DNA from: Candidatus Velthaea sp.
Lineage (GTDB): Bacteria; Vulcanimicrobiota; Vulcanimicrobiia; Vulcanimicrobiales; Vulcanimicrobiaceae
DNA: 14,342 nt
Assembly: GCA_050012475.1 (NCBI GenBank)
Contig: JBEKHC010000116.1
Span: 1-14,342 of the forward strand
Direction of reading: 5' to 3'
The notes under the pieces are model-generated. The model did not search any database. It was not told the DNA's origin and saw nothing but the letters and a program-made list of their open reading frames with translations. Both the position numbers and the translations under genes were made by a program. Numbering within the stretch: the stretch's first letter is position 1; the number at the start of each line of letters is the position of its first letter. Of the stretch, positions 1 to 14,342 are shown in pieces.

Positions 1-80
1 CTTGCGGCGTCGCCACAGGCCGAAGGGTGCGGACGTAGCGAGCGAAGCCGAGGGCGCTAATCCCTGCGCGGCCGGCCTGA

Positions 81-208
81 TGGATTCGTCTCGGCTACGC
101 TCGACGAACCCGTGGATTCGTCTCGGCTGCGCTCGACGAACCCGTGGATTCGTCTCGGCTGCGCTCGGCGAACCCGTGGATTCGTCTCGGCTGCGCTCGA
201 CGAATCTG
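81..208. repeat. Tandem array of 4 x 32-bp palindromic (REP-like) units
   Basis: Unit tggattcgtctcggct(a/g)cgctcg(a/g)cgaacccg starts at 81, 113, 145 and 177 (the last ends ...gaatctg). Each unit has ttcgtc...gacgaa inverted arms. No unique spacers. Confidence 0.95.
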
Positions 209-320
209 CCAAGCCGCAGGCTGTACTCAAGCGAGGCCGAGGGCGCTCAACCAAAGCGTTTGGGGAGTCGCGTGCGATAGGACCTGCGACCCCAAAGGAT
301 ATCGCATCGCGCGCCTCACG

Positions 321-1934
321 CTAGTGCGGAATGATCCACGGGACGAGAAACTGCTGCACGGCAACCGTGATGCTCAACCCCAGCGTGAGGATGATGCTGT
401 GCGGAAACGTCCGCGCGAACACGACGCCCTCCTGCCCTTTGAGATCGGTGACCGACACGCCGGTCGCAAGGTTTTGCGGCGAGATCATCTTGCTCATGAC
501 GCCCCCCGACGAATTCGTCGCCGCGAACAGCACCGGATCGAGATGGAGCTGGCCCGCGGCGATCACTTGCAAGTTTCCGAACAGTGCGTTCCCCGACGTG
601 TCGCTGCCCGAGAGAAACACGGCCAGCCAACCCAGAAACGGTGAGAGGACGACGAACAGCAGGCCCACCGACGCCACGCCCAACCCGAGCGTGTAGTTCA
701 ATCCCGAGTAGTTCATCAAATACGCCAACCCGATGATGAGCATGACGGTGAGAATCGGGATGCGGCTCTGCCGCCAAGTGACCCCGACGCAGCGCACGAT
801 CTCGCGGGCGGGCAGCCGCACGAGCGCCGCGGTTATGAGCGCGGCGACGAGGATCGCGGTGCCGGTCGCAAGCGGCTGGAAGTCCCAGACCGCGGCGTAC
901 GGCGCGCCCTTATAGAGCGTGATCGAAATTGCTTTGTTTAGGCCCGGCCAGGCGATTTTGAGGTCGCCGAGTGCGGCGATGTTGAGCGTCGTCCAGACGA
1001 TGACGGTGACGGTGACGACGATCCAGGGAAGCCAAGCGCCAAGCGCACGTTGCGCACCCGTCGCCGGCGCGTGCGTGCGCGGCATGTCGCGCACGGGCAC
1101 GGCGTAGGCCGGATCGGGTTGCGGCTTCCACCGCTGCAGGAACAGTAAGGTCGCGAGCAGCGAGCCCAGCGACGACAACACGTCGGTGAGCGCGTAACTG
1201 ATGAAGTTCGAGCAGATGAATTGAATGCCGCCGAACGCGCCGCCGGCGACGAGCAGCACCGGCCACAGCGCTCGAATCGAGCGCAGACCGCCGTACACGC
1301 CGATCACATAAAACGGCAGGAAGAACGCGAAGATCGGCAGCTGCCGGCCGACCATCGCGCCCAGCACCGTCGGCGAAAGATGGGTGACCGCGCCGAGCAC
1401 GGTGATCGGCACGCCCAGCGCGCCGAACGCGACCGGGGCGGTGTCGAAAATCAGCGTGAAGACCAGCGCGTCGAGCGCCGGGAACCCGACGGCGATGAGC
1501 ACCGAGCTCGTGATCGCGACCGGCGTCCCGAAGCCGGCGACGCCCTCGAGCAAAGCGCCGAAGCAGTAGCCCATCACGATGAGCACGATCCGCCGGTCAT
1601 TCGGCAAGTGGTCGAGTACCCACGCGTTGAGCGCCTTGAACCGACCCGACTTCACGGCGATGTTGTAGAGCAGCAGCGCGTTGACGACAATCCACATCAC
1701 CGGCCACACCGCGAATGTCGCGCCGTTGGCGACGGCCGCAACCGCAAGTCCGACCGGAAGCTTCCACCACGCGACCGCGATCAGCAACCCCACGAGCAAG
1801 CCCCCGAGCGAGGCCTGCCAGGCCGGACGGCGTACGATGCCGAGCAGCGCCAGCACCGTTAGGACCGGCAGCGTCGCAACGACGAACGAAGGGAGCAGGG
1901 CACCGCCGACCGGCGTGAGCAGTTGGGGAAACAT
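321..1934 (-). CDS. lctP: L-lactate permease (LctP/LldP family)
   Basis: 537 aa, polytopic membrane protein. Family motifs FGALLEGVAGFGTPVAI, TAPVAFGALGVPI, FLSGSDTSGNALFGNLQ and NSSGGVMSKMISPQ. RBS gagagga upstream of ATG. Confidence 0.95.
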   Translation of the reverse strand: MFPQLLTPVGGALLPSFVVATLPVLTVLALLGIVRRPAWQASLGGLLVGLLIAVAWWKLPVGLAVAAVANGATFAVWPVMWIVVNALLLYNIAVKSGRFKALNAWVLDHLPNDRRIVLIVMGYCFGALLEGVAGFGTPVAITSSVLIAVGFPALDALVFTLIFDTAPVAFGALGVPITVLGAVTHLSPTVLGAMVGRQLPIFAFFLPFYVIGVYGGLRSIRALWPVLLVAGGAFGGIQFICSNFISYALTDVLSSLGSLLATLLFLQRWKPQPDPAYAVPVRDMPRTHAPATGAQRALGAWLPWIVVTVTVIVWTTLNIAALGDLKIAWPGLNKAISITLYKGAPYAAVWDFQPLATGTAILVAALITAALVRLPAREIVRCVGVTWRQSRIPILTVMLIIGLAYLMNYSGLNYTLGLGVASVGLLFVVLSPFLGWLAVFLSGSDTSGNALFGNLQVIAAGQLHLDPVLFAATNSSGGVMSKMISPQNLATGVSVTDLKGQEGVVFARTFPHSIILTLGLSITVAVQQFLVPWIIPH

Positions 1935-2074
1935 CGTTCGTCCTCTCGCGGATTGCGGTGATTGCTGTTCCCCGGTAGCCTACCCGCTTTGAGGAGCAAG
2001 TTTGCGCAGCGCATGCTCGATTGGCGCATCAACCGCGAATAGCGCAGCGTGCCAAGCGTTCGAAGGAGGAGAGC

Positions 2075-2488
2075 ATGACGGAGGCCTATCTCGGGGGCTG
2101 GTCGATTGCGCGATCGATCGTCGACTTCGACCGGAACGACGCGATCGATTGCGCCGGCGAAGCGACACTACAGGCGCTCGATCGAAGCATCGTCTACGCC
2201 GAACGGGTGCGGTTCGAGCTGGCAAACAAACTCATCCACGCGACGCGGAGCTATCACTTTACGACGTCGGACGGCGCGATCGTCGCCACCTTCAGCGACG
2301 GCGCACCGTTCTTCACCCTGCGGCTCGATGCCGGCGGCATCGGACGCGCCTTCCACCAGTGCGGCGGCGACCGGTACGCGCTGACCCTCGAACTGCGCGA
2401 GCCGGACCGCTGGCAAACGTGCTGGGACGTGAGCGGGACGAAGCGGCTGCGCATCACGAGCGCGTACCGGCGGTCCCGCCAGTCGTAA
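2075..2488 (+). CDS. DUF6314-like hypothetical protein (137 aa)
   Basis: Strong RBS aaggagga at 2063-2070 before ATG 2075. The pattern LGGWSIARSI...YAE...ATRSY...FSDGAPFF...HQCGGDRY...WDVSG...ITSAYRR matches my recollection of DUF6314. Confidence 0.75.
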   Translation: MTEAYLGGWSIARSIVDFDRNDAIDCAGEATLQALDRSIVYAERVRFELANKLIHATRSYHFTTSDGAIVATFSDGAPFFTLRLDAGGIGRAFHQCGGDRYALTLELREPDRWQTCWDVSGTKRLRITSAYRRSRQS

Positions 2489-2591
2489 CGATTCATGAGA
2501 CTGGCATTTTGATTGGCGGTGCGCTAGATTTTGGGTGCGGCAATGAATCCGCGTCGATGGCGCGCGTCTGCCGATGAGGGAGAACAGCGAG

Positions 2592-3173
2592 ATGTTTGCG
2601 ATGAAAACCGCCCGGGTGAAGGCTCTCTGGATCGTTCTCGGCGCTGCTGTTTGGGCGCTGTCCGCAGCCCACCTGCCGGCGGCGAGCGCGTCCGGGTCGG
2701 TGCCGGTGGTGAAAAGCACCGCAACGCCGGCACCGTGCACGGGGAACTGTCATCACGTGCAGCCCGACGTCATCGCCATGACCAATCCGCTCGCCCCATG
2801 CCCGTCGGCGGCCCCGAACAAGGGGCGCCCGCCGCTTCGTCCCGGTGGACCGATATCGTCGATGAAACTCGTGCCGCCGCCGGCAACGCCGAAGTTCGTC
2901 AGCTACACGTTGGGCACAACGTGGCTCGTCTCGCAGGTCGTCGCGTATCCGCACGAGCTCGACATCCAGCTTTCGTCCAACGGTACGCACGAGACGATAC
3001 ACGTCCCGTTCTCGGTCGCGCCGGCAGCCGCTGCGTTGACTTTTCCGGCCAATGCCAAAGCGCAAAGTGTCATCGGCCACGGTGCGAACGCGCAGCTGCT
3101 TTGGCTGCGCGGAACGGAAGGGCATTTCGTCAACTACGCGGTCTCGGCGCCCCCGTTCATCACGGCACCGTAG
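2592..3173 (+). CDS. Secreted hypothetical protein
   Basis: Sec-type signal (MKTARVK + hydrophobic stretch + AASA), Pro-rich linker with a CxxxC and a beta-rich C-terminus. Start is uncertain (2574, 2592 or 2601); gggag lies 9 nt before 2592. Confidence 0.7.
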
Positions 3174-5890
3174 CCGCCTGCCATCTGCGCGGCGAGCTCC
3201 GTTCGCGAACGCACGTCGAGCTTGGAGAAGACCGCCGCAACGTGATGTTCGACCGTCCGATTGCTGAGCGTCAGGTGTTCGGCGATCGAGCGGTTCGATA
3301 GTCCCTGCGCGACGAGCGTTGCGACGGAGCGTTCCCGCGGGGTGAGCGTTTGCGATCCGCGTTCACTGCGCCGCGCTCCGCCGGCAGTCAGTCGCCGCGC
3401 GTCACGCAGCGCGCCCATTTCGCGGTAGCGCGCGATTGCGGAGGCCCGATCGCCGGATAATTCGTCCGCCAACGCCGCAAGGGGCAGAAAGCCGAATCGG
3501 GCGGCAAGTTCGTTTGCCTCGCCGAGTTCCCGGTCGCGCGCTTTGACGTCGCCCGCGTTCGCGGCCGCGATCGCGCGCACGAGCAGCGCGTGCACGCGCA
3601 TGACCGGATCGGCGGCATCGGCCGGACCGAACAGCGCGGCCGCCCGCTGCGCTTCGGCCGGACCGCCGAAACGCGCGAACTTCAACAGCGCCTCGTACAC
3701 GTACGTTGCGTTGCGCAGGCGCGGCAGCGTCGTGCGGATGAGCGCGACCGCGCCGGCGGCATCCGCCCGCGCAACGCGCAGTTCGGCGTGCGCTGCGGCA
3801 AGCGCTGCGGCATTCTGGTCCGATCCGGTCTGCAGAACCTGCGCGAGCACATCCGCGGCGGCCAGCCGCGCAAGCAGCGCGTCGTCTTCGACCGCCAGAG
3901 CGATCGGGATACCGATCGCCGCCGCATAAAATCGCACGAACGCGCCCGGCACATTGAGCGCGCAAGCGAAACGCAGCAACCGGTGGGCCCGCCGAGCGTC
4001 GCCGCGTAAAAACGCGACATCGGCGGCCGTGAGCCGGGCATACGCGGCGGCGTACGTCAGCGCGTGCCGGTCGGCGACCTCGATGGCATGGTCCAGACCG
4101 GCCTCCGCAAGCGGATAATTCGCTTGCTGGCGGGCAAAATCGGCGAGCAGCGTCCAGCAGTTGGCAACGATCGCCGGATCTCCGTGCGCTTCGGCCGTTT
4201 TGACTGCCTCGAGCGCGAAGGTCTGCGACCGTTCGACCTGACCCAGCAAATTCGCGATCGCTGCAGCCGCGACGTGGCGTCGCACCACATATGCCGGGTC
4301 GCGTTCACCCTCGAACGCATCGGCCAGCAGCAAGTGGGTTTGCGCTTCGTCGACCTCGTCGCGAAAGGCGTGAAACATCGCCAGCAACGCTTCCGCGGCG
4401 AAGCGTTCGGCATCGCCCGCTCCGCTCGACGCGATCGCGTCGCGGCAGTGACGCAGCGTGGCGTCGGCGTCGGCGAGCCGATGGGCCGCATTGGCGAGGC
4501 GTAAGGCAAGCCGGGCGATGCCGCTGCGGTTGCCGATGGTCCGATAATGCTCCGCCGCCTGGGTGAAATGAACGTACGCGTCGCGCGCGGCTCCGAGCAG
4601 GTCGTGCGCGTGGCCGAGCTTTTCGCCGACGCGCGCAATGCTTTGCGCGTCGAGCACGCCGCCGTGCAGCGCGCGGTCGAAATGATCGCGCGCCGTCCCG
4701 TAAGCGCCCGCGGCGGCAGCGAGATCGCCGGCTGCTTCGGCGTAGGCCGACGCGCGATCGGGACGCCCCGCCCCATCCCAGTGCCGAGCGAGAACGGCGG
4801 CAGCGGGCCGGACGGCCGCCGTTTCGAGCCGGGTCGCAATGCGTTCATGGAGATCGCGCCGCTCGGTGCTCGTGAGCCGATCGTAGAGCGCTTCGCGGAT
4901 GAGTTCGTGGCGAAAGCGCGGCGCTTCGGCGCCGCGCCGGCCGGTTTCGATCGTCAAGCCGAGCGCACGCGCCGTGCGAAACAACGTGACCTCTTCGCGG
5001 CGTGAAATCGGCGCGAGTGCGCGCAGCAGGTCGAGGTCGATCACCGATCCGAGCGCAGCCGCGATTTCGAGCACCTCGACCCCGCCGGGAGGCAGCGACG
5101 AGAGCCGGCTGGTCACGGATTGCTTGACGGTCACGGGCAGCAACGGCGCTGACGGATGATCGAGCGCGTCGAGCACGAGATCCGAAGCGAACAGCGGATT
5201 GCCTTCGCTTTTGCGCCAGATCTCATCGATCACCGCCTGCGGCAGCAAACGCCCCAGCGGCAGCGCGCGGAAGATCAATTCGCGCGTTTCGTCTTCCTCC
5301 AGCGGCCCGACCGCGATCTCATATGTCGAACGAAGGTTCGGTTTTTCGTCCGCGCGCGCGGCCAGCGCGAGCACGACGCGCGCGCCGCCGAGCGTTGCCG
5401 TGAGATACTCGACGACCTCGAGCGACTCGGGATCGATCCATTGGACGTCGTCGATGGTCAAGAGCACCGGCGCGTAGCTGGCGACGGATTCGAGGAACTC
5501 GCGAACGATGACAAACAGCCGCCGCTTGTGCGCAGGCGCGTCCTCGACATCGTCCGGCGCGGGGAACAGGCCGAGAAACTTCGCGAAGAGGGCGCGGTCC
5601 GCGCTCTCGCGCGGCTGCGCGCGCGGTTCGTTCTGCGCCAGGATGCGGCATGCTTCGGCGATCGGCCCGTAGGCCTCGCGGGTAAAGGCGTAGTTCGTCG
5701 CCTCGCCGATTTTGAAGCCGCGCGCGCGAGCGACGCTCGTCCACTCGCGAAGCAAGCGCGTTTTCCCGATGCCCGGTTCGCCGCACACCAGCGTCGTCGA
5801 TCCGTCGCGCCGGAGCGCATCGTCGAGCCGCGCATCGATGAACGCGAGCTGTTCGCCGCGTCCGATCATCCCGACCCGCTCTCGTGCCAT
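3134..5890 (-). CDS. Large ATP-binding LuxR-family (LAL/STAND) transcriptional regulator: AAA ATPase + TPR-like helices + C-terminal LuxR HTH
   Basis: IGRGEQL, Walker A GEPGIGKT, Walker [30 protein letters not shown] and C-terminal [43 protein letters not shown]. True start is probably 5929, 5890 or 5869 rather than 6118. Confidence 0.93.
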
Positions 5891-5965
5891 AGCGGCCAGG
5901 CTTCGACGCGCACGGCGATTTCCGCCCATCGGGCCCGTGTGCCCGCAGGGCGATCCGGTAGGCGG

Positions 5966-6010
5966 ATAGGTGAAACTACCGATGTTCGGCGCGTCACCCG
6001 CGGCTAGACT
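5966..6010 (+). promoter_or_regulatory. Candidate LuxR-type operator plus -10 element of the divergent promoter
   Basis: Imperfect 18-bp palindrome ataggtgaaactaccgat at 5966-5983, TAGACT at 6005-6010 and no good -35. Confidence 0.5.
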
Positions 6011-6095
6011 GATCCTCATATTCATCGACCGCGGCGCACGACACCCCAACGGCATTCGCCGTCGACGGCCACTCCTTAGAAAGAAGGGCGATATC

Positions 6096-6254
6096 ATGCA
6101 AGGCCTGGTCCTTTTCATCTCGCTCGCCGATGCTATCCGAGCCGGCTACCAGATCGTCGACCAAACGCCGGACGGCTACGTCGTCCGCACGAAAACGGCG
6201 GCGGGTTGGGCCATGGCGTTGATCCGCGACCCGCGCAACGCGGCTGCGCGTTGA
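6096..6254 (+). CDS. Small hypothetical protein (52 aa)
   Basis: [52 protein letters not shown]. Purine-rich RBS aagaaggg, protein-like composition, divergent from the LAL gene. Confidence 0.8.
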
Positions 6255-6337
6255 GCGGGGCCGACAATGCATACGCCGGTTCCCCCGTTCGACCGCATGC
6301 GGCAGCCGCGCGATCCGCGCACCCGAGTACGACGCTG

Positions 6338-6604
6338 ATGGCACGCCTTTCAGCAAAGGAGATCGCGATCATCGCGGGTCTCGCCGACGGTCTGCAGAGC
6401 AAAGAAATTGCCGCCGTGGTGCGGCTCAGCAAAGCCAGCGTCGATACCTACATCCGCATCCTCTACGGCAAGCTTGACGCCCGTTCGCGCGCGCAGCTCG
6501 TTGCGGTAGCGTATGCCGCGGGCATCCTGTGCCGCCCCGAAACCGGCGGCATCGCCCAGCGTTACGCGGATCCGTCCACCGCGCGGATGGCCGCGAGCGA
6601 ATAA
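6338..6604 (+). CDS. Stand-alone LuxR/GerE-type HTH protein (88 aa)
   Basis: LSAKEIAIIAGLADGLQSKEIAAVVRLSKASVDTYIRILYGKLDARSRAQLVAVAYAAGI is a typical LuxR HTH. No receiver domain. Start codon uncertain. Confidence 0.88.
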   Translation: MARLSAKEIAIIAGLADGLQSKEIAAVVRLSKASVDTYIRILYGKLDARSRAQLVAVAYAAGILCRPETGGIAQRYADPSTARMAASE

Positions 6605-6796: not shown

Positions 6797-7207
6797 CTAT
6801 GGGTCGGGCTCGAATGAAACGGTGCTGATTTTTCCCTGCGGGTCGAAACCAAGTCTCATTCGTATGCTGCCGTTTTCGCAGCGCAGCGAATAGACATAGA
6901 TCGTGCTGCCGGACTCTTTGTATTTGAACAAGGAGTTGGCGGAATGCAGCGTGCCCAGCGGCTTCAAATGCGCGCTGATCGCGCCGACGACGTCGGCGCC
7001 CAGCTGTTCGTTGGCCCGCAGGGCATACAACGAACGATCGAGCGAACCGCGCTGCCAAGCGTCGAATTGGGCATCGACGCGGCGCGTGATCGCCGGATTT
7101 TCGGGCGCCTGCGCAGCGGACGCGGCGGAGCCGTTCGCCGCGTCCGACGCGTCGGCGAGCGGGCCGAGCACGGCGAGCACGGCAGATAAGGCGATGGTAG
7201 CGATCAT
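6797..7207 (-). CDS. Secreted hypothetical protein (136 aa)
   Basis: RBS ggagg. ATGA overlap with the upstream DCC1-like gene. Hydrophobic N-terminus and Ala/Ser linker, then a helical + beta domain ending LGFDPQGKISTVSF. Confidence 0.8.
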   Translation of the reverse strand: MIATIALSAVLAVLGPLADASDAANGSAASAAQAPENPAITRRVDAQFDAWQRGSLDRSLYALRANEQLGADVVGAISAHLKPLGTLHSANSLFKYKESGSTIYVYSLRCENGSIRMRLGFDPQGKISTVSFEPDP

Positions 7208-7632
7208 GAGCGTGAACCTCCGGAAGAATCAAGTGACGGGTGGCTGGCGAGAACGCACATCGACGCACCCAGCCACACCGAAAGGCGGCCGCGGTGGGCG
7301 GCGATCGCTCGGTAAACGAGCGCTTCGAGCGCGCAAACCAGGGGCAGAGACAAAACGGCGCCGGCACGAGCCGGCCAACCGCCCGCGCGTACCAACAGGA
7401 CGTTGAACGCGCGCGCGCCGACGTGAACGCGGCCGCCCTCGACGAGCACCATCGCGGCGGCGAAGGCGCGCCGGTCGATCCCCAGCCCGCGCACGATGCG
7501 GGCGAGCCCGGGGTCGCGGTCGATGCTTTGGTATCCCACGGACCGGACGCGCGCGGACCGCACCAGCCCGGAATGAGCGAATCGGGTGCACATGCCGCAA
7601 TCCGCGTCGAAAATCAGCACCGGACCCATCAT
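7204..7632 (-). CDS. DCC1-like thiol-disulfide oxidoreductase (DUF393)
   Basis: N-terminal VLIFDADCGMC (DxxCxxC), GRVHVGARAF and YRAIAAHRGRL. Coupled by ATGA overlaps at both ends. Confidence 0.9.
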   Translation of the reverse strand: MMGPVLIFDADCGMCTRFAHSGLVRSARVRSVGYQSIDRDPGLARIVRGLGIDRRAFAAAMVLVEGGRVHVGARAFNVLLVRAGGWPARAGAVLSLPLVCALEALVYRAIAAHRGRLSVWLGASMCVLASHPSLDSSGGSRS

Positions 7633-8663
7633 TCCATCCCGCGCGTCGGAAGCGTCGCAGTTACTGCGGCGGGACGCTCGACGAACGCACGCAGGAACTG
7701 CGCCGGCGCGACGCGTGCTGCGTACGTTCGCAGCGCCGACAGCGCGAGGCGGTAGTCGTCATCCGAAAACAGCATCGCTTCACACGCGATCATCACCAGC
7801 GAGAAGAGCGGCAGCGCCATCGTGTAAGCGATCCCGAGATGAAAGCCGATCGCGGCCAGCGCGACGACGTATTTCGCCGGACGCTGCCAGATGCAGAACG
7901 GGAACGCCGCTTGGAGAATCAGCGTGGCGTATGTCGCGGCGGCGACGAGGACGGCGCTTTGGTACACGTGGGCGCCCAGCGGCGTCAGGTTGAATTGATT
8001 CGAGCGTAAAATATAATACAGCGCCGTGCCGTCTTGCCACTTGTGCCCCGTAATCTTGTAGAAGCATGCCGCGGCGTACAGCAGACTCACTTGCCAGAGG
8101 ACCAACGCGACGCCGAAGTTGTGCAGCAAGGCGCGAGCGCGCCCGACGAAGCTATTCCTGCCATCCGTCGCCGTCGCGGGCGGCGCGAACCACTTACCGG
8201 CGACGAGATACGTGCTGCAATCGAGCGCCACCGCGTACATCAACAGGATCGTGGCGAGCGTCCAGCCGCTATCCGTAACGAAGCTGTCGCGCGCGATCAG
8301 GCACCAGGTGAAGATCGCGCAGGCAACGGTCGAGAACGGCACCCAGCGGCCGCAGGCGAATGCGACCGCCGAGAGCAGCCCGAGCCAAAAAATCAGCTCG
8401 AAACCGGCCGCCGAGGCCGATTGAAGATAGAGGTTGGGCCCGTGTTTTTCGACGAGTTCGCCAGCATATGACAGCGGGACGACGCCGTCGGGGCCCCACA
8501 GAAAACGCCGCCAGCCAAGATTTTCCAGGTAGAAGAGCACGATTGCGGTGCCCAAGAGCGCGCGCAACACGCTGCTGCCGATGCGCCGCTGGGGCGTCGT
8601 CAGCACCTCGAGCACGCGGTCCGCGAACGCCGCGATCCGTGCGGATCCCGCTGCCGCGCTCAT
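7629..8663 (-). CDS. HTTM-domain membrane protein (SdpB-like, vitamin-K-dependent carboxylase homology group)
   Basis: LRALLG, LWGPDG, QVSLLYAAACFYKITGHKWQDGTALYYIL and FHLGIAYTMALPLFSLVM. Multiple TM helices. Follows an SdpA/DUF5819-like gene. Confidence 0.88.
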   Translation of the reverse strand: MSAAAGSARIAAFADRVLEVLTTPQRRIGSSVLRALLGTAIVLFYLENLGWRRFLWGPDGVVPLSYAGELVEKHGPNLYLQSASAAGFELIFWLGLLSAVAFACGRWVPFSTVACAIFTWCLIARDSFVTDSGWTLATILLMYAVALDCSTYLVAGKWFAPPATATDGRNSFVGRARALLHNFGVALVLWQVSLLYAAACFYKITGHKWQDGTALYYILRSNQFNLTPLGAHVYQSAVLVAAATYATLILQAAFPFCIWQRPAKYVVALAAIGFHLGIAYTMALPLFSLVMIACEAMLFSDDDYRLALSALRTYAARVAPAQFLRAFVERPAAVTATLPTRGME

Positions 8664-9319
8664 GACGCCGCCTCGGCGGCAGCCGCGCCGGTAACCGGCA
8701 GCCAGGGGAACAGCAGCGTGTCGTTGTGCTTTCTGGAATCGTCGGCAGCGAACCGCTGGGTGAAGCGCGGGAACACGTGCTCCACGATCGCGATCTGCAC
8801 GCTGCGCGGATGCGTCGCGCCGCCGGCGCCGAGAAACAGCGCGAGCCGGACGAGACCTTCGAGGATCATCGGACGCGTGCGCGGATCGGTGAAGGCCTGC
8901 ACTTGCTGCGGTTTGAACTTGCCTTTGCCCAGCGCGCTGTCGTCGAGCGCGGAGACGGTGAGGTTCATCGCCAGCACCTTGAGCGTCATGTAGCGGGAAA
9001 ACGGATGCGCGCGCAACTCATCGAGCAGCGGGTCGGTGAGATTGACCCAGGCGGTGGGCTCGCCGCGTTCGGTCCGCGTCCGCGCCAGGATCACGATATC
9101 GCTCTCGATGGGCGTCGGCGCGAACATGTTCCAGTATTGTTCGAAGTACGGGTGCATGTAGCCGAGCACGGCCGGACGCAGTGCTTCGCCGAGCGGATTG
9201 ACAGGCAGCGCGAAGAGCGTCTCCGCGCTCGCGTGAACGACAAGGACGACGGCGAACGTAACGCTCAAGGCCCAGAGCGCGATCCGTTCGCGAGACGAGG
9301 CAAAGCCTCTGCTGTGCAT
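8660..9319 (-). CDS. SdpA-like / DUF5819 family protein (219 aa)
   Basis: RBS gaggaa before ATG 9319. N-terminal TM helix, then H...LFALPVNP...YMHPYFEQYWNMFAPTP. ATGA overlap with the HTTM gene. Confidence 0.82.
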   Translation of the reverse strand: MHSRGFASSRERIALWALSVTFAVVLVVHASAETLFALPVNPLGEALRPAVLGYMHPYFEQYWNMFAPTPIESDIVILARTRTERGEPTAWVNLTDPLLDELRAHPFSRYMTLKVLAMNLTVSALDDSALGKGKFKPQQVQAFTDPRTRPMILEGLVRLALFLGAGGATHPRSVQIAIVEHVFPRFTQRFAADDSRKHNDTLLFPWLPVTGAAAAEAAS

Positions 9320-9359
9320 GCGGTGTTCCTCTCGGTAGGCGAATGCGGACGAAGCATGT

Positions 9360-9390
9360 ACGCAGGGCGCGCCCCGAGCGCGCCCCACGT
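9360..9390 (-). other. 13-bp RNA hairpin directly 3' of the peptide gene (stability or attenuation element)
   Basis: Minus strand acgtggggcgcgc-tcggg-gcgcgccctgcgt gives 11 Watson-Crick + 2 G.U pairs. The full pairing works only on the minus (sense) strand. No U-tract. Confidence 0.65.
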
Positions 9391-9399
9391 CGTCGGGAT

Positions 9400-9651
9400 T
9401 TAGCTGTCGAGGAGTTTCGCCGCTTCGCTTGCGCTCGTGGAGAGAATCCCGCTCGAGGCTACTTTGTCGCTCACGACAAAGGTGAGCGGCGAGACGATTC
9501 GGACGTGCCAATCCGGGCGAGCCACGCTCGAGAAGGCAACGGCTGCGGTGTTCGTGTTTACCACGTGAGGAGGTTGCGCCAACGCCGAACCAACGGCGAG
9601 GGCGGCGATCGGCAAAACTGCCGCGACGGTGACCAGTGCTTTGTGCTTCAT
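9400..9651 (-). CDS. Small secreted peptide, putative SdpC-like/RiPP precursor (83 aa)
   Basis: RBS ggag before ATG 9651. Signal peptide MKHKALVTVAAVLPIAALAVGSALA. Mature part is Ser/Thr/Val/Ala-rich with one Trp and no Cys. Immediately upstream of sdpAB-like genes. Confidence 0.75.
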   Translation of the reverse strand: MKHKALVTVAAVLPIAALAVGSALAQPPHVVNTNTAAVAFSSVARPDWHVRIVSPLTFVVSDKVASSGILSTSASEAAKLLDS

Positions 9652-9833: not shown

Positions 9834-11009
9834 TCACTCGCGCAAGCGGCGCCGGCTGCGCAGACGCCATGCGAGCACGAGGGCGCCGGCAACCACCCCG
9901 CCTGCCGCAAACATCGGCAGATCGTGGGCAACGGCCGCCGGCGGAAGTGCGGCCATCAGGTGCGGCAGCTGTTGGAACACGCTGCGCGCCAATCGCACGC
10001 TGAACCACGTCCAGCTCGCGAGCGCGATGAAACTGTAGACGGTCAGTACCGCGACGGTAAACGGCGGCAACGGCGGTGCCGGCACATGCCCGCACCGGGC
10101 GAAGCGGGACGCCAACCGCCGAAACGTGCGCTCAACGTGCGCGTGCAAGCCGCTGACGCCCAAAACATCGGAGACGATCCAGTATCCGTCGAAGCGAAAG
10201 AGCGGATTGAGGTCCAGCAGCGCGGCAGCGATAATGAACGTAATCGCGCAGTGGAGCGCGGCGGCGTGGGTCTGGACATAGATCGCGGCGTAACACGCGC
10301 CGCAGATGCTCTGAACGTACAAGCCTCCGCAGTCGACGGCGATCCGCCGGCGACGGTCGAGCCGCCAAATGCGCGTCACGTCGCTGTAGAAGACGGGAAA
10401 CACGAGGTACAGTGCGAGCCCAATCGAGCCCGGCCGCACAGCGAAGCGTTTGCAGGCACCGGCGTGCCCGAACTCGTGCGCCAAGCACGAAACGACGAAC
10501 AGCGCGTAACCGGCCGGCACATCGTACCGGCCAAGGCGCCGCGGCGCGACGTGTTGCGTATCGATCCAGTACGCGCCGGCGGCGGCGGCGACGAGCGCGA
10601 TGAGCACCGGCACCGCAACGGGTCCGAACAGCGCCGCGAAAGGCGTCGCGATCCGCCCAGCGAGTTTCGCCGGAAACAGCGTTCGGCGCAGCAGGAAGCC
10701 GTGCTTGCGCGCTCGCGTGCGTTGCTGCTCTTCCGCTCTGTCAATGCCCGCGACGACGCGATCGTAGACCCGGCCGACATCAGTGGCGTTGAGTTGCCGT
10801 TCGTTGTCGCTGCACCGGATCGCTATTTCCTCAAAGCTCGCGCCGTTCCACGCGTCCGCGACGACCCGGTATGCCAGTTCGGACAAGCGCACTTGTACGC
10901 CCGAATCGCAGTCCAGCACGTAGCTGACACGCACGTCGCTACCGTCGAGCACGTGCAACGTCCCGCGCGCGATGCGCGCCGACGCGGGCGGCGATTCGAA
11001 CGTCGTCAC
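9834..11009 (-). CDS. M50-family (YydH-like) membrane zinc metallopeptidase with probable N-terminal PqqD/RRE-like domain
   Basis: HEFGH at 10464-10478, IGLALYLVFPVFYSDVT, VDCGGLY and DLNPLFRFDGYW. The first ~95 aa read as three strands then three helices. GTGA overlap with the upstream gene. Confidence 0.9.
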   Translation of the reverse strand: MTTFESPPASARIARGTLHVLDGSDVRVSYVLDCDSGVQVRLSELAYRVVADAWNGASFEEIAIRCSDNERQLNATDVGRVYDRVVAGIDRAEEQQRTRARKHGFLLRRTLFPAKLAGRIATPFAALFGPVAVPVLIALVAAAAGAYWIDTQHVAPRRLGRYDVPAGYALFVVSCLAHEFGHAGACKRFAVRPGSIGLALYLVFPVFYSDVTRIWRLDRRRRIAVDCGGLYVQSICGACYAAIYVQTHAAALHCAITFIIAAALLDLNPLFRFDGYWIVSDVLGVSGLHAHVERTFRRLASRFARCGHVPAPPLPPFTVAVLTVYSFIALASWTWFSVRLARSVFQQLPHLMAALPPAAVAHDLPMFAAGGVVAGALVLAWRLRSRRRLRE

Positions 11010-11977
11010 ACCGCGACGTCGCCGCGCCGCGGTCCGCGGCGATTCCGGCGCACGATCGCGCTCAAGTCGCGCTGCAATGCGTCAATCACGCGATCCGACT
11101 CTTCGAGCAGCGCGTGCCACGGCAATGGCCGAGCGCGATCGGCTGCGTCGAACGCGAGCGCGAGATTTGCGCGCGCCAGTCCGAGGAACTCGTCGGCATG
11201 GCCGCCATAATAGAGTTCGCGCGCCAGCGCGGCAAGATCGGAAATCGGCTCGGGCGTATCCGGCAAGCCGAGCACCGTGGCGAGTCGAGCGGTTACCAGC
11301 GTTGGGCGATGGGCTTGGAGATCGGCTTTCCAATCCTGGAGATCGTCTAAAATCTGGTGCGCGAGATTGTATTTCTCGAGCGAGAGCAGCAGCGCATCGG
11401 TACGCGAAGCATCGCTGCCGAGCAGGTTGAGCCCCACGATCGCCACGCGCGAAACGCAGCTCTTGGCTGATGCTATCGCGATGCATTCGGCCGTCGTCGC
11501 ATCCGCGAGCCGCCGGCGCCGCGTCGAATAGCTCGCCTCCTTGATCACGCCGCCCAGATACTCGGCAAGCGCGGCTTGAAGCGTCTCCCAGAAGACGCTG
11601 TCGGGCGCGAACGTCCGCCCCAGTTCACGCTGCAATTCGCACTGCGCGCCTTGCCAGCAGAGCAGAAACGACGTTCGTTGCTCGCGCTCGAGTTCTTCAT
11701 CGAAGAGCGCGTCGGCAATCACGATCGTGCCGGCGAGCAGTTCACAACCGGCCAGGAACCGTGCCAGAAGCTCCTGGTCGATATCGCCGAACGCGTCAGC
11801 GAAAAGTAACGGGAAGATCGCGATCGCAGAATCCGGCAGCAAGCCGGAAAAATCAACCTTGCGCGGCCAGCGCCGCTGCATCGCCGCGACGTCGCCGGCC
11901 AGCCGGGCCAACGTCGCGTCCCGATCGGCGGTCGAGAATTTGCGGAAGGTACGCTTGAGTTCAAGGAGGTTGGCCAT
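11006..11977 (-). CDS. Class I isoprenoid-synthase-fold protein (polyprenyl synthetase-like; putative ComQ-like peptide prenyltransferase), 323 aa
   Basis: RBS gagga before ATG 11977. Degenerate first Asp motif IADALFDEE, then AKS, then second motif HQILDDLQDWKADL at about 11330-11356. All-helical character. Confidence 0.8.
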   Translation of the reverse strand: MANLLELKRTFRKFSTADRDATLARLAGDVAAMQRRWPRKVDFSGLLPDSAIAIFPLLFADAFGDIDQELLARFLAGCELLAGTIVIADALFDEELEREQRTSFLLCWQGAQCELQRELGRTFAPDSVFWETLQAALAEYLGGVIKEASYSTRRRRLADATTAECIAIASAKSCVSRVAIVGLNLLGSDASRTDALLLSLEKYNLAHQILDDLQDWKADLQAHRPTLVTARLATVLGLPDTPEPISDLAALARELYYGGHADEFLGLARANLALAFDAADRARPLPWHALLEESDRVIDALQRDLSAIVRRNRRGPRRGDVAV

Positions 11978-12457
11978 GGCTGTCCTCAGTCGAGAGCCGT
12001 CACGGCGTCCTGGGCAATGGACATGACGGTGTTCTCCAAATCGCGATTCGCGGGACACGCAGGCGGAGAGCGCAGGAAGCGCTCATCGCCCGTCGTGATG
12101 TCAGCGACGTGTGGTTATTCGTAGGGCGAGTATCGCACGATCGGGCTGCGGCTTGTTCGCCGCGCCCGTAGTCATCTTAAGGCGCCGCTCGAGTTCGTTC
12201 GTCTCTCAACTGTCATCTCGCTTGTCTTTTCGTCCAGCTCTTCGTCGTTCTTCAGTCACGAAGCTACGGCTTCGCTCCCTCATCACTCCTCGATCTGAAC
12301 GAAAATCCTTCGCGATCTTATGCCACGAACTTCTGAGTCGGGACACTGAGTAAACCTCGGTTCATCGTGATCTCTCGTCAAGCGTAGCCCGAGCGATTCC
12401 GGCGCGCAATCTTTCATTTGTGCTACGAGGAGTCGCAATCGCCGGCGGCCGGGCACG

Positions 12458-13000
12458 TCACGCTCGGATCTGCGTCGAACCAGCTTCGCCTCCGACGATG
12501 ACGCCGCCACTGCGCTGCACGATGAACGCCGTGTACGAGACGCGCATAAGCGACGTGGATGTGCCAAAGACGGCCAGCGACAGTTGGAGAACCCCGGACC
12601 CCGCAGCGGCCGAGTACGACACCGCAGCGGCATCGACAGCGAAGCCGAGCGGCGGAATGAAGACCAAACCGCCGCCCGCCGACGTGCCGGCGATCGGCTG
12701 GACGACGACTAGCTCGACGTCGGGGCCCACCGAGCTGCCCGCGGGCGTCAGCGAATATGGCGTCCAAAACGAAGCCGGAGCCGCCGAGGCGATACCGCTG
12801 ACGAACTCGCCGGCCGTGCACGGGCCGCCGACCGGAAACGACAGCGTGTCGCGCGTCCAATCGTGCGCGTGGGTACCGACGAACGCAAACACCGCGACGC
12901 CGGTCTCGACCGTGACGGTAAGCGCTCCGAGGACGGGTAAGCTCGGCGCGCCGCCGGGAAATTCGATCTGCTGCGACTCTTTGGAGGTCAGGGTGATCAC
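12458..13000 (-). CDS. Hypothetical beta-rich protein (180 aa)
   Basis: Strong RBS gaaaggaa. GTG start overlaps the stop of the cyclase-like gene (GTGA). Rich in Gly/Ala/Val/Ser/Thr. No family recognised. Confidence 0.78.
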   Translation of the reverse strand: MITLTSKESQQIEFPGGAPSLPVLGALTVTVETGVAVFAFVGTHAHDWTRDTLSFPVGGPCTAGEFVSGIASAAPASFWTPYSLTPAGSSVGPDVELVVVQPIAGTSAGGGLVFIPPLGFAVDAAAVSYSAAAGSGVLQLSLAVFGTSTSLMRVSYTAFIVQRSGGVIVGGEAGSTQIRA

Positions 13001-14037
13001 GTGATCGTTTCCTTTCGGTTCGGGCTATGCGCTCCATTGGGTACGTCGTCCGACGATGAACGCTCCCGCATCATCAGGCTCAGCGCGCGCGCGACGGTGG
13101 CCGTCGTAAACAGAAAATAGTCGTCGTCGTGGAGCGGCCCACCCGCTTCGCCCGGCAATTCCCACGGGCGTTCGACATCATCGTACGTCACGCGCAGCAT
13201 GGGCTTGGCGGCCCACCAGCCCTCTGCCGATTGCGTTTCGAGCAGCGCTGCGGCAACGTCGAACACGAACGCCGCAGTCGGGCCGGAACCGAAGCGAGCG
13301 ACGATCTCGAGGGCCAGCGCGCGATCGAACGGATCGCGATCGACTGCCGCGGCAAGGATCGCAAGGGCCGGAGGTATTGCCGGGCGCCCCGCCGCCTCCA
13401 ACGCGGCCAAGTTGTGGAGGGTCGCATAGAGGGGCGTGCGATACCAGTAGGAATTCCACAGCCCGTCGTCCCTGCGCTGGGAGGCGATGAACGCGAGCGC
13501 TTTCTCGCGCGTTGCCGACGGCGCCGCCAGCGCGCGCACGACGAGCGGTGTGACGTCTGGATGACTGCGCGTCCACGCGGACGCAGCGACGGTGTCGGAC
13601 GCGCCGGTGTTGTACGTCGCGAACCCGCCGTCGGAACGCGCAAACGTCTGGAGGATACGGTCGGTCTCGCTTCCCGGAGCGCTTCCCATCGACGTAAGGA
13701 AGAGCGCGGCCCAACTCGTCGAGTCGCTGTCGGAGGGGACCCGCGTATTGTAGCCCCAGCTGCCGTCGGCGCGGCGCGAGGCCTTCAGGAATTGGGCGGC
13801 CCGCTCGAGTGCGCCGCGCAGATAGTGCCGTTCGGGCGCACGCACGATCGGTTCCGTCTCGAACAAACACCAACCGATGTAAGCGGTCGTCCACGTGTCG
13901 GAACGTCCCACGGCGAGATTGAAATCGGGCCAGGCGCCGTTGGGCGCCTGCATCTCGACGATGTAGCGGCTGGCCCGATCGATCGCGCTGCCCAAATCGG
14001 GCAGCAGTGCGCGCCCATCGTGCTGTCGGGCGCGCAC
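12997..14037 (-). CDS. Prenyltransferase/squalene-oxidase-repeat protein; single-domain class II terpene cyclase-like
   Basis: QW-type repeats QAPNGAW, RRADGSWGY, RSDGGFATY, QRRDDGLWNSYW and QSAEGWW. DSDST at 13717-13731 occupies the DxDD position. 346 aa fits one alpha6/alpha6 barrel. Confidence 0.85.
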   Translation of the reverse strand: MRARQHDGRALLPDLGSAIDRASRYIVEMQAPNGAWPDFNLAVGRSDTWTTAYIGWCLFETEPIVRAPERHYLRGALERAAQFLKASRRADGSWGYNTRVPSDSDSTSWAALFLTSMGSAPGSETDRILQTFARSDGGFATYNTGASDTVAASAWTRSHPDVTPLVVRALAAPSATREKALAFIASQRRDDGLWNSYWYRTPLYATLHNLAALEAAGRPAIPPALAILAAAVDRDPFDRALALEIVARFGSGPTAAFVFDVAAALLETQSAEGWWAAKPMLRVTYDDVERPWELPGEAGGPLHDDDYFLFTTATVARALSLMMRERSSSDDVPNGAHSPNRKETIT

Positions 14038-14038
14038 G

Positions 14039-14342
14039 TCAGCGGCACTCCAGCGCAGGCGACGCCGGCGCCGCAGCCGGGGCAGCGCCCTTCACGTGCG
14101 CTCCGTACGCCTCCGCGACCTTCGTTCGGAAGCGTTTGCCGAACGCATCGCAATAGTTTGCGTGCATCGTCGTGCCGTTGGCGGCCTCGGCCAGCACCGC
14201 GCAGCCGCCGCCGCAATACAACGCGAAGCGGCAGCGCCGGCAGGTCGGATTCGAGACGACGGTACGTTGGCGCCAGTTTTGCTCGCGCTCGGCAACGAAC
14301 TGCAGACTGCCGGATGGATCGATCCAACCGATCCGGATGTTC
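14039..14342 (-). CDS. C-terminal part of a radical SAM/SPASM-domain protein (5' end outside window)
   Basis: Frame is open to the window edge: NIRIGWIDPSGSLQFVAEREQNWRQRTVVSNPTCRRCRFALYCGGGCAVLAEAANGTTMHANYC. This is Cx2Cx5Cx3C plus a distal Cys, the SPASM AuxII pattern. Stop is 1 nt before the next start. Confidence 0.88.
   Translation of the reverse strand, partial: NIRIGWIDPSGSLQFVAEREQNWRQRTVVSNPTCRRCRFALYCGGGCAVLAEAANGTTMHANYCDAFGKRFRTKVAEAYGAHVKGAAPAAAPASPALECR

What the first reader, a model, noticed from the sequence alone, without database searches (positions are those of the whole stretch)
12997..14037. Single-domain class II terpene cyclase-like enzyme with DSDST motif, coupled to a SPASM radical SAM
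Seen: 346 aa, about half a squalene-hopene cyclase, with DSDST replacing DxDDT and keeping the Asp equivalent to the protonating residue. Established: monodomain class II cyclases such as MstE cyclise a prenyl chain already attached to a non-terpene carrier. I also recall prenyltransferase/cyclase pairs acting on cyanobacterial ribosomal peptides; this needs verifying. Inference: it cyclises the chain installed by the 11006-11977 product.
Basis: partly seen in the sequence, partly recalled or inferred. Interest (0 to 1): 0.72.

Follow-up and report, generated by a model that had tools for sequence, protein, structure and literature searches.

The report
Stand-alone cyclase for terpene-decorated peptides
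This minus-strand gene encodes a one-domain terpene-ring-forming enzyme fold with its catalytic acid intact, inside a peptide-maturation gene cluster, and it likely folds into rings a lipid chain that the neighbouring enzyme would attach to a short peptide, a split-gene variant of a chemistry first reported in 2024.

Summary
Real gene, minus strand, 346 aa. The model matches the one-domain class II cyclase MstE (Z 38-39; squalene-hopene cyclase 31), and D105 of DSDST aligns with MstE's catalytic D109. The motif is ordinary for this clade. The window is cut mid-cluster: contig C74 joins it (bridged in four runs) and supplies the rest of the radical SAM gene and a 45-aa precursor with an acidic leader and a Cys/Trp core. 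The 11006-11977 product has an isoprenoid-synthase fold with an altered first Asp motif. Among its longer relatives, 79 of 81 are fused to a class II cyclase domain. So the cyclase partners the prenyltransferase, while the radical SAM enzyme likely cross-links the same peptide. Best reading: a split form of the ChrPC-type prenyltransferase-cyclase peptide maturases (Hubrich 2024, seen only through a review). No activity is shown. The precursor family matched no NCBIfam model, and two related clusters have Trp-free, Tyr/Cys cores, hinting at a non-Trp acceptor. The scan noted similar clusters earlier on other DNA and on this window. Verdict: new variant of a known kind.

The parts
12997..14037 (-). 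MstE-like one-domain class II terpene cyclase, 346 aa
13717..13731 (-). DSDST motif, residues 103-107; D105 aligns with MstE D109
14039..14342 (-). C-terminal SPASM part of a radical SAM maturase; the rest lies on contig C74 (about 25102-26457, +), preceded by the 45-aa precursor gene at C74 24906-25043
12458..13000 (-). 180-aa protein of no known family, overlapping the cyclase stop by 4 bases; a 71% identical copy lies before a precursor and cyclase in L006
11985..12365 (-). Decayed duplicate of the precursor gene, its downstream spacer and the first codons of the radical SAM gene; leader remnant at 12104-12205; interrupted by a repeat at 12215-12349
11006..11977 (-). Trans-isoprenyl-diphosphate-synthase-fold protein, 323 aa, likely peptide prenyltransferase (DxxxD at 89-93, QxxDDxxDW at 208-216)
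9834..11009 (-). HExxH intramembrane (M50-type) protease, likely leader removal; overlaps the prenyltransferase stop by 4 bases
   Evidence: below all curated cut-offs

Best explanation
The gene encodes an MstE-type one-domain class II cyclase fold in a ribosomal-peptide cluster, and it likely cyclises a prenyl chain that the 11006-11977 product would first attach to the precursor peptide. Shown: fold, catalytic Asp, gene order, a precursor, and fusion of the two enzymes in relatives. Inferred order: (1) the radical SAM/SPASM enzyme cross-links the core (TAAGAQLDPCVVMVVWHWK), most likely at its single Cys; (2) the prenyltransferase ionises a C10-C20 prenyl diphosphate and alkylates a core Trp; (3) D105 protonates the far double bond, and conserved aromatic residues guide a cation cascade that ends by proton loss or closure onto the indole; (4) the HExxH protease removes the leader. 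Chain length, acceptor atom, ring number and the order of steps 1-3 are not known.
For: Model pLDDT 90.4. Best structural matches are MstE, 8PAJ, 8PAK and 6IJ1 at Z 37.2-38.7, rmsd 2.0-2.2 over 301-309 residues; SHC 30.9, rmsd 2.9 over 289. D105 = MstE D109. W36, F39, W49, W94, Y96, F139, W155, W194, Y197, W198, W275, F310 recur in nearly all MstE-type rows. Of 150 listed relatives of the prenyltransferase, 81 are 500 aa or longer and 79 of these carry a class II cyclase-like domain; 46 of 81 have DxDD and 11 DxD[ST]; P0046 is fused in the order cyclase-prenyltransferase, as in this cluster. Precursor, radical SAM, cyclase, prenyltransferase and protease recur together in L004/L005, L039, L041, L066 (protease not found) and L068. 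The leader pattern occurs twice in the whole genome, both times in this cluster. 82 of 119 precursor-family cores hold Trp and 109 hold Cys. The partner has the trans-IDS fold (profile E 1.8e-12 to 4LOB and 5e-4 to the Trp prenyltransferase Ord1) but only 6 of 61 family members keep DDxxD at the first motif and 3 of 61 the following RR. A review states that ChrPC prenylates an internal Trp with such a domain and cyclises the chain with its C domain. Complex prediction gave weak support: 0.42 against best control 0.00; runs agreed in 100% of contacts, partner pLDDT at least 89; at 0.60 or under, 18 of 157 solved complexes and both of the 2 passing mismatches (of 215) scored so, so it is weak.
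Against: No activity or expression was shown. The ChrPC and NctPC sequences and the primary papers were not available, so orthology is untested. The two MstE loops that carry Y157 and R337 are 9 and 11 residues shorter here, with no counterpart for either residue. The commonest fusion partner of this prenyltransferase family is a separate DxDD clade, not the DSDST clade. Of 52 cyclase loci only 7 have this prenyltransferase type, 19 have an ABBA-type one and 26 neither (many are short contigs or duplicates). Two genomes with the fusion (G232, G183) showed no radical SAM gene or precursor in the stretches fetched. 37 of 119 cores lack Trp.
Confidence: 0.72

Rival explanations
1. The pair makes a free terpenoid: the synthase-fold protein elongates or supplies a prenyl diphosphate (or prenylates a small aromatic such as free Trp), and the cyclase cyclises it, as drimenyl/copalyl diphosphate synthases or MstE do; the peptide genes are a separate product.
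For: The partner's best structure and profile hits are chain-elongating polyprenyl synthases. MstE's own substrate is a small molecule. Drimenyl diphosphate synthases are the next structural hits at Z about 30.5. G232 and G183 carry the fusion with no precursor found nearby.
Against: The first Asp-rich motif and the RR loop of elongating synthases are lost in most of the family. The genome has three ordinary polyprenyl synthases elsewhere. Precursor, radical SAM and protease travel with this prenyltransferase type across several phyla.
Confidence: 0.12
2. The cyclase is inactive or dispensable here; the product is a linear prenyl-peptide, or the cluster is decaying.
For: MstE's Y157 and R337 loops have no counterpart. 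20 of 81 fused relatives have no DxD at the aligned place. A decayed precursor copy with an inserted repeat lies in the cluster. The gene was not found in the 3 same-genus genomes searched, 88-94% complete.
Against: The frame is intact and contigs of four runs show no other letters or gaps in it. Both Asp and the aromatic set are invariant in relatives at 53-84% identity. Short loops are general in this clade. An intact precursor exists on C74.
Confidence: 0.1
3. Same pathway, but the prenyl acceptor is not Trp (Cys or, in relatives, Tyr), and the radical SAM enzyme uses the W-x-W motif for an aromatic cross-link.
For: Cys is commoner than Trp in the family's cores (109 vs 82 of 119). All five precursors in L068 and both in L066 lack Trp and carry Tyr and Cys. 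W-x-W/F ends several close cores.
Against: A review says all characterised trans-IDS-like peptide prenyltransferases target Trp. The radical SAM enzyme scores best with thioether-type models (PapB, CefB, Cys-rich), though far under their cut-offs. Of the 11 cores that start Thr-Ala like this one, 10 have Trp (counted by eye).
Confidence: 0.05
4. It is half of a split squalene-hopene cyclase for hopanoids.
For: Pfam SQHop hits; PDB titles call 8PAJ and 8PAK squalene-hopene cyclases.
Against: The genome has a full-length SHC on C71 at 831.9 bits, cut-off 431.1; this protein scores 23.2 on that model; no second half is in the cluster.
Confidence: 0.01

Closest known systems
MstE, merosterolic acid synthase of Scytonema (PDB 6SBB-6SBG; known here from PDB titles and passages of PMC9401909 and PMC12414744)
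   Same: One-domain fold (Z 37.7-38.7, rmsd 2.0-2.1), DxD motif with the same second Asp, conserved aromatic residues.
   Different: About 27% identity; the Y157 and R337 loops are 9 and 11 residues shorter; MstE acts on geranylgeranyl-dihydroxybenzoate, while this gene lies in a peptide cluster.
ChrPC, fused trans-IDS-like prenyltransferase plus cyclase (Hubrich et al., Chem 2024; primary paper not held, seen only in review PMC13290415, section 9 and passages)
   Same: Same two enzyme types; Trp-containing precursor; Gln before the second Asp-rich motif (Q208, 54 of 61 relatives), although ordinary synthases such as 4LOB have that Gln too.
   Different: Two genes instead of one; accompanied by a radical SAM/SPASM enzyme and an HExxH membrane protease. 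Sequence relationship to ChrPC could not be tested.
NctPC, ABBA-fold prenyltransferase fused to an MstE-like cyclase (same review, passages)
   Same: MstE-like cyclase acting on a geranylgeranylated Trp of a peptide.
   Different: The prenyltransferase fold here is trans-IDS-like, not ABBA; genes are separate.
PDB 8PAK and 8PAJ (Cystobacter fuscus, Archangium gephyra) and 6IJ1 (Actinoplanes)
   Same: Best sequence hits (E 4.8e-22, 1.6e-15) and same fold.
   Different: Their substrates are unknown to me; one search found no paper on 8PAJ/8PAK.

Membership tests
MstE-like one-domain class II terpene cyclases | Single alpha-helical barrel domain of 300-400 aa, no second domain | tested here: met
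   346 aa; Z 38.7, rmsd 2.0 over 309 residues to 6SBC
MstE-like one-domain class II terpene cyclases | DxD motif with the protonating second Asp | tested here: met
   D105 aligns with the residue changed in D109N and D109A chains
MstE-like one-domain class II terpene cyclases | Aromatic-lined cavity around the Asp | tested here: inconclusive
   Aromatic residues are conserved by alignment; the cavity itself was not measured, as model coordinates are not in the script box
MstE (the enzyme itself) | Loops carrying Y157 and R337 | tested here: not met
   12 vs 21 and 22 vs 33 residues; MstE lengths counted by eye, ours. It works like MstE but is not an MstE orthologue
MstE-like one-domain class II terpene cyclases | Cyclisation of a carrier-bound prenyl chain | not testable with these tools
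   Needs an assay
ChrPC-type prenyltransferase-cyclase peptide maturases | Trans-IDS-fold prenyltransferase | tested here: met
   Foldseek top hits all trans-IDS or Ord1, best E 6.7e-4 on a pLDDT 68 model; family profile E 1.8e-12 to 4LOB
ChrPC-type prenyltransferase-cyclase peptide maturases | Both domains in one chain | tested here: not met
   Separate genes here and in L004/L005 and L066; fused in 79 of 81 long relatives
ChrPC-type prenyltransferase-cyclase peptide maturases | Leader-core precursor with Trp in the cluster | tested here: met
   45-aa precursor on C74 with two Trp; join bridged in four runs
ChrPC-type prenyltransferase-cyclase peptide maturases | Sequence kinship with ChrPC itself | not testable with these tools
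   No ChrPC sequence or primary paper available
Squalene-hopene cyclase (TIGR01507) | Two domains, score over 431 bits | tested here: not met
   23.2 bits; true SHC on C71
Chain-elongating trans-IDS (for the partner) | DDxxD first motif followed by RR | tested here: not met
   6 of 61 and 3 of 61; no Pfam hit for the window protein

The most novel reading that the evidence does not exclude
A widespread, uncatalogued peptide family (leader SLNxDDLDVEELEQRLEM) combines a radical SAM cross-link with a cyclised terpene, using a free-standing cyclase that docks on its prenyltransferase; in Trp-free members the terpene sits on Tyr or Cys, which would break the Trp-only rule for this prenyltransferase fold and give a portable enzyme that cyclises lipids on chosen peptides.
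Probability: 0.25. Interest if true: 0.72.

Novelty: new variant of a known kind. Interest (0 to 1): 0.45.

Why it matters
Peptides carrying cyclised terpenes were first reported in 2024, and the two maturases named in the review I read are fusions. A free-standing 346-aa cyclase with a short, defined substrate would let the cyclisation step be studied and reused apart from the prenyl transfer. Pairing with a radical SAM enzyme predicts doubly modified lipopeptides, and the Trp-free relatives offer a direct test of acceptor range. The enzyme chemistry itself is known, which caps the interest.

Tried and rejected
DSDST as a novel motif: rejected. Split SHC: rejected; note that one search missed the C71 SHC, which searches found. 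My first motif count on the fused domains (4 of 79) was too narrow a pattern; the aligned recount is. A profile alignment to the genome's own SHC slipped register and put its DxDD against another repeat, so equivalence to the SHC Asp rests on MstE and on the profile match to 1GSZ starting at residue 373. The tree is a quick tree; the branch separating partner types has support 81 only, and I labelled P0002-P0008 as IDS-partnered partly without seeing their context, so it shows no co-evolution; 76 of 151 rows were used. The window's 12206-12346 ORF is not a precursor but part of the repeat. The 180-aa protein: no Pfam or NCBIfam hit, no usable Atlas hit, found in 0 of 400 other genomes of the phylum searched. 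A peptide-binding (RRE) domain at the start of the protease is my recollection of such proteins; a PDB sequence search found nothing. No Rfam match; promoter and terminator scans uninformative; no plasmid match for the prenyltransferase. No RNA holder listed. The downstream SdpA/SdpB-like cassette was not found beside any cyclase locus, but the closest loci are too short to tell. Literature: searches found no paper on this precursor family or on a split radical-SAM-linked form; the library lacks the Chem 2024 and Nat Chem 2020 papers, whose genome surveys and supplements may already list it; the review's supplements could not be read.

Full report
Observation. The coordinates hold a 346-aa ORF on the minus strand, with coding-like third-position GC. 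DSDST is residues 103-107. Pfam places the protein with squalene-hopene cyclase domains, and the PDB sequence search ranks 8PAK, 8PAJ and MstE first. The AlphaFold model (pLDDT 90.4) matches MstE, 8PAJ, 8PAK and 6IJ1 at Z 37.2-38.7, rmsd 2.0-2.2, against 30.9 for SHC (Foldseek agrees). The D109N and D109A chains of MstE differ at the Asp that aligns with D105. The motif is the usual one of this clade: MstE is described as using DxD (PMC12414744, section 6 and passages read), and DADST, DSDST and DCDST all occur among relatives. Twelve aromatic positions are conserved. The two MstE loops with Y157 and R337 are shorter here; a review passage says Y157 steadies the aromatic ring for the last ring closure (PMC9401909, passage). 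A more open entrance would suit a peptide-bound chain, but short loops are general in this clade, so this is not evidence for a peptide substrate.

The cluster. The window is the whole of contig C116. Its end shares a unique 22-base overlap with the end of C74, where a radical SAM frame runs on in register. Contigs of four runs cover both sides without mismatch; one of 1532 bases lies 1229 bases on C74 and 325 on the window; one of these runs may be the source sample. Upstream of the radical SAM gene is a 45-aa precursor with an acidic leader ending ELEQRLEM and the core TAAGAQLDPCVVMVVWHWK. The order is precursor, radical SAM/SPASM, cyclase, 180-aa unknown, decayed precursor copy, prenyltransferase, HExxH protease, with gaps of 1, -4, 480 and -4 bases in the window. 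The radical SAM enzyme passes no family cut-off; it scores best with geopeptide, PapB and CefB models.

The partner. The 11006-11977 product has no Pfam or NCBIfam hit, but its model and family profile match trans-isoprenyl diphosphate synthases and the Trp prenyltransferase Ord1. The family keeps D89, D93 and QxxDDxxDW but mostly lacks the second Asp and the RR loop of elongating synthases. Of the best 150 of 653 relatives, 81 are long and 79 of those carry a class II cyclase-like domain. Most of these are a DxDD clade apart from ours; a few (P0046, P0164, P0171) are of the DxDST type, and P0046 has the same order as this cluster. In the phylum sample, 7 of 401 genomes hold the prenyltransferase; of the six others, five have it fused to a cyclase and one (G195) has a separate cyclase directly upstream. 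Two more prenyltransferases (P0023, P0026) report the same longest-contig lengths as two close cyclases (P0006, P0008) and two precursors (P0228, P0212), which suggests but does not show co-location. The complex prediction gave weak support only (0.42, best control 0.00).

Related loci. Of 52 cyclase loci, 7 have this prenyltransferase type (3 with a related radical SAM gene, 4 with the protease), 19 have an ABBA-type one, 26 neither (the ABBA profile was built from 12 of these ORFs, anchored on two Pfam Trp_DMAT hits, one over and one just under the cut-off). Precursors of this leader family were found only in loci with the synthase-fold partner or in short loci without a visible partner (L006, L016/L017), none in ABBA loci. 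The family is large: 165 hits, 120 listed, 119 parsed; 109 cores have Cys, 82 Trp, 37 no Trp, 26 of those Tyr. Not all need sit beside a cyclase. L066 and L068, which do, have only Trp-free precursors. Five precursors from related loci, and this one, matched no NCBIfam model.

Mechanism. Most likely (0.72) the prenyltransferase alkylates a core Trp, the cyclase protonates the far double bond through D105 and closes rings, the radical SAM enzyme cross-links the Cys, and the protease frees the core. The genome holds three polyprenyl synthases and a bacteriochlorophyll synthase, so prenyl donors up to C20 are likely available (the C20 link is from my own knowledge). All chemical steps are inferred. 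Rivals: free terpenoid or small-molecule product (0.12), inactive cyclase (0.10), non-Trp acceptor in this cluster (0.05), split SHC (0.01).

Comparison. A 2026 review (PMC13290415; section 9 and passages read) describes ChrPC and NctPC as fused prenyltransferase-cyclase peptide maturases from Hubrich et al., Chem 2024; steromaze is cited to that paper (PMC13647313, passages). PMC12715784 (first third read) covers lanthipeptide prenylation and added nothing on cyclases. I could not read the primary papers. The protein works like MstE and like the C domains of those maturases; it belongs to the MstE-like clade but is not a fused PC enzyme. Earlier notes of this scan reached the same class on other DNA and on the neighbouring gene; my reading was recorded before I saw them, and they are not independent support.

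Verdict. Observation confirmed, interpretation supported, new variant of a known kind, interest 0.45. The open points worth bench time are the free-standing cyclase, the radical SAM pairing and the Trp-free relatives.

Noticed in passing
L068:4052-5584 and L066:13668-13958: Five and two tandem precursors with Tyr and Cys but no Trp, beside the same radical SAM clade (over 50% identity) and synthase-fold prenyltransferase with cyclase; possible non-Trp acceptor.
   Followed up: partly
L030:6315-10909; also L007, L008, L025, L027, L031-L033, L036, L052: A conserved operon of three Pfam-less proteins (about 285, 303, 255 aa), an ABBA-type prenyltransferase and the same cyclase type, in Acidobacteria and one archaeal bin; no precursor of this leader family, substrate unknown.
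   Followed up: partly
window 11985-12365 (-): Decayed duplicate of the precursor and of the radical SAM gene start, carrying a 135-base repeat with 17 hits on 14 contigs of the genome.
   Followed up: partly
window 12458-13000 (-): 180-aa protein of unknown family, also before a precursor and cyclase in L006, absent from that position in L004/L005.
   Followed up: partly
window 6797-9651 (-): Small secreted ORF (9400-9651), DUF5819, HTTM/SdpB-like and DCC1-like genes form an Sdp- or linaridin-like cassette; three of them have paralogues on contig C2.
   Followed up: no
L039:8537-16878: One cluster holds two radical SAM genes, a free DADST cyclase and a prenyltransferase fused to a second cyclase domain of the DxDD clade (GADD), with a Cys-rich precursor.
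   Followed up: partly
L043:5343-9836: Cyclase domain fused to a class II lanthipeptide synthetase (DUF4135 plus LANC_like) in one 1498-aa frame.
   Followed up: no
L055:7760-11002 and L053:8843-10993: Cyanobacterial 717-721-aa fusions ending in the same cyclase type, one next to a WelO5-type halogenase; their N-domains matched neither prenyltransferase profile.
   Followed up: no
window 1-290: A short 32-base-period repeat with many copies across the genome.
   Followed up: no
window 321-6604: L-lactate permease, DUF6314, a large AAA-LuxR regulator and a small LuxR protein; no sign that they belong to the cluster.
   Followed up: no
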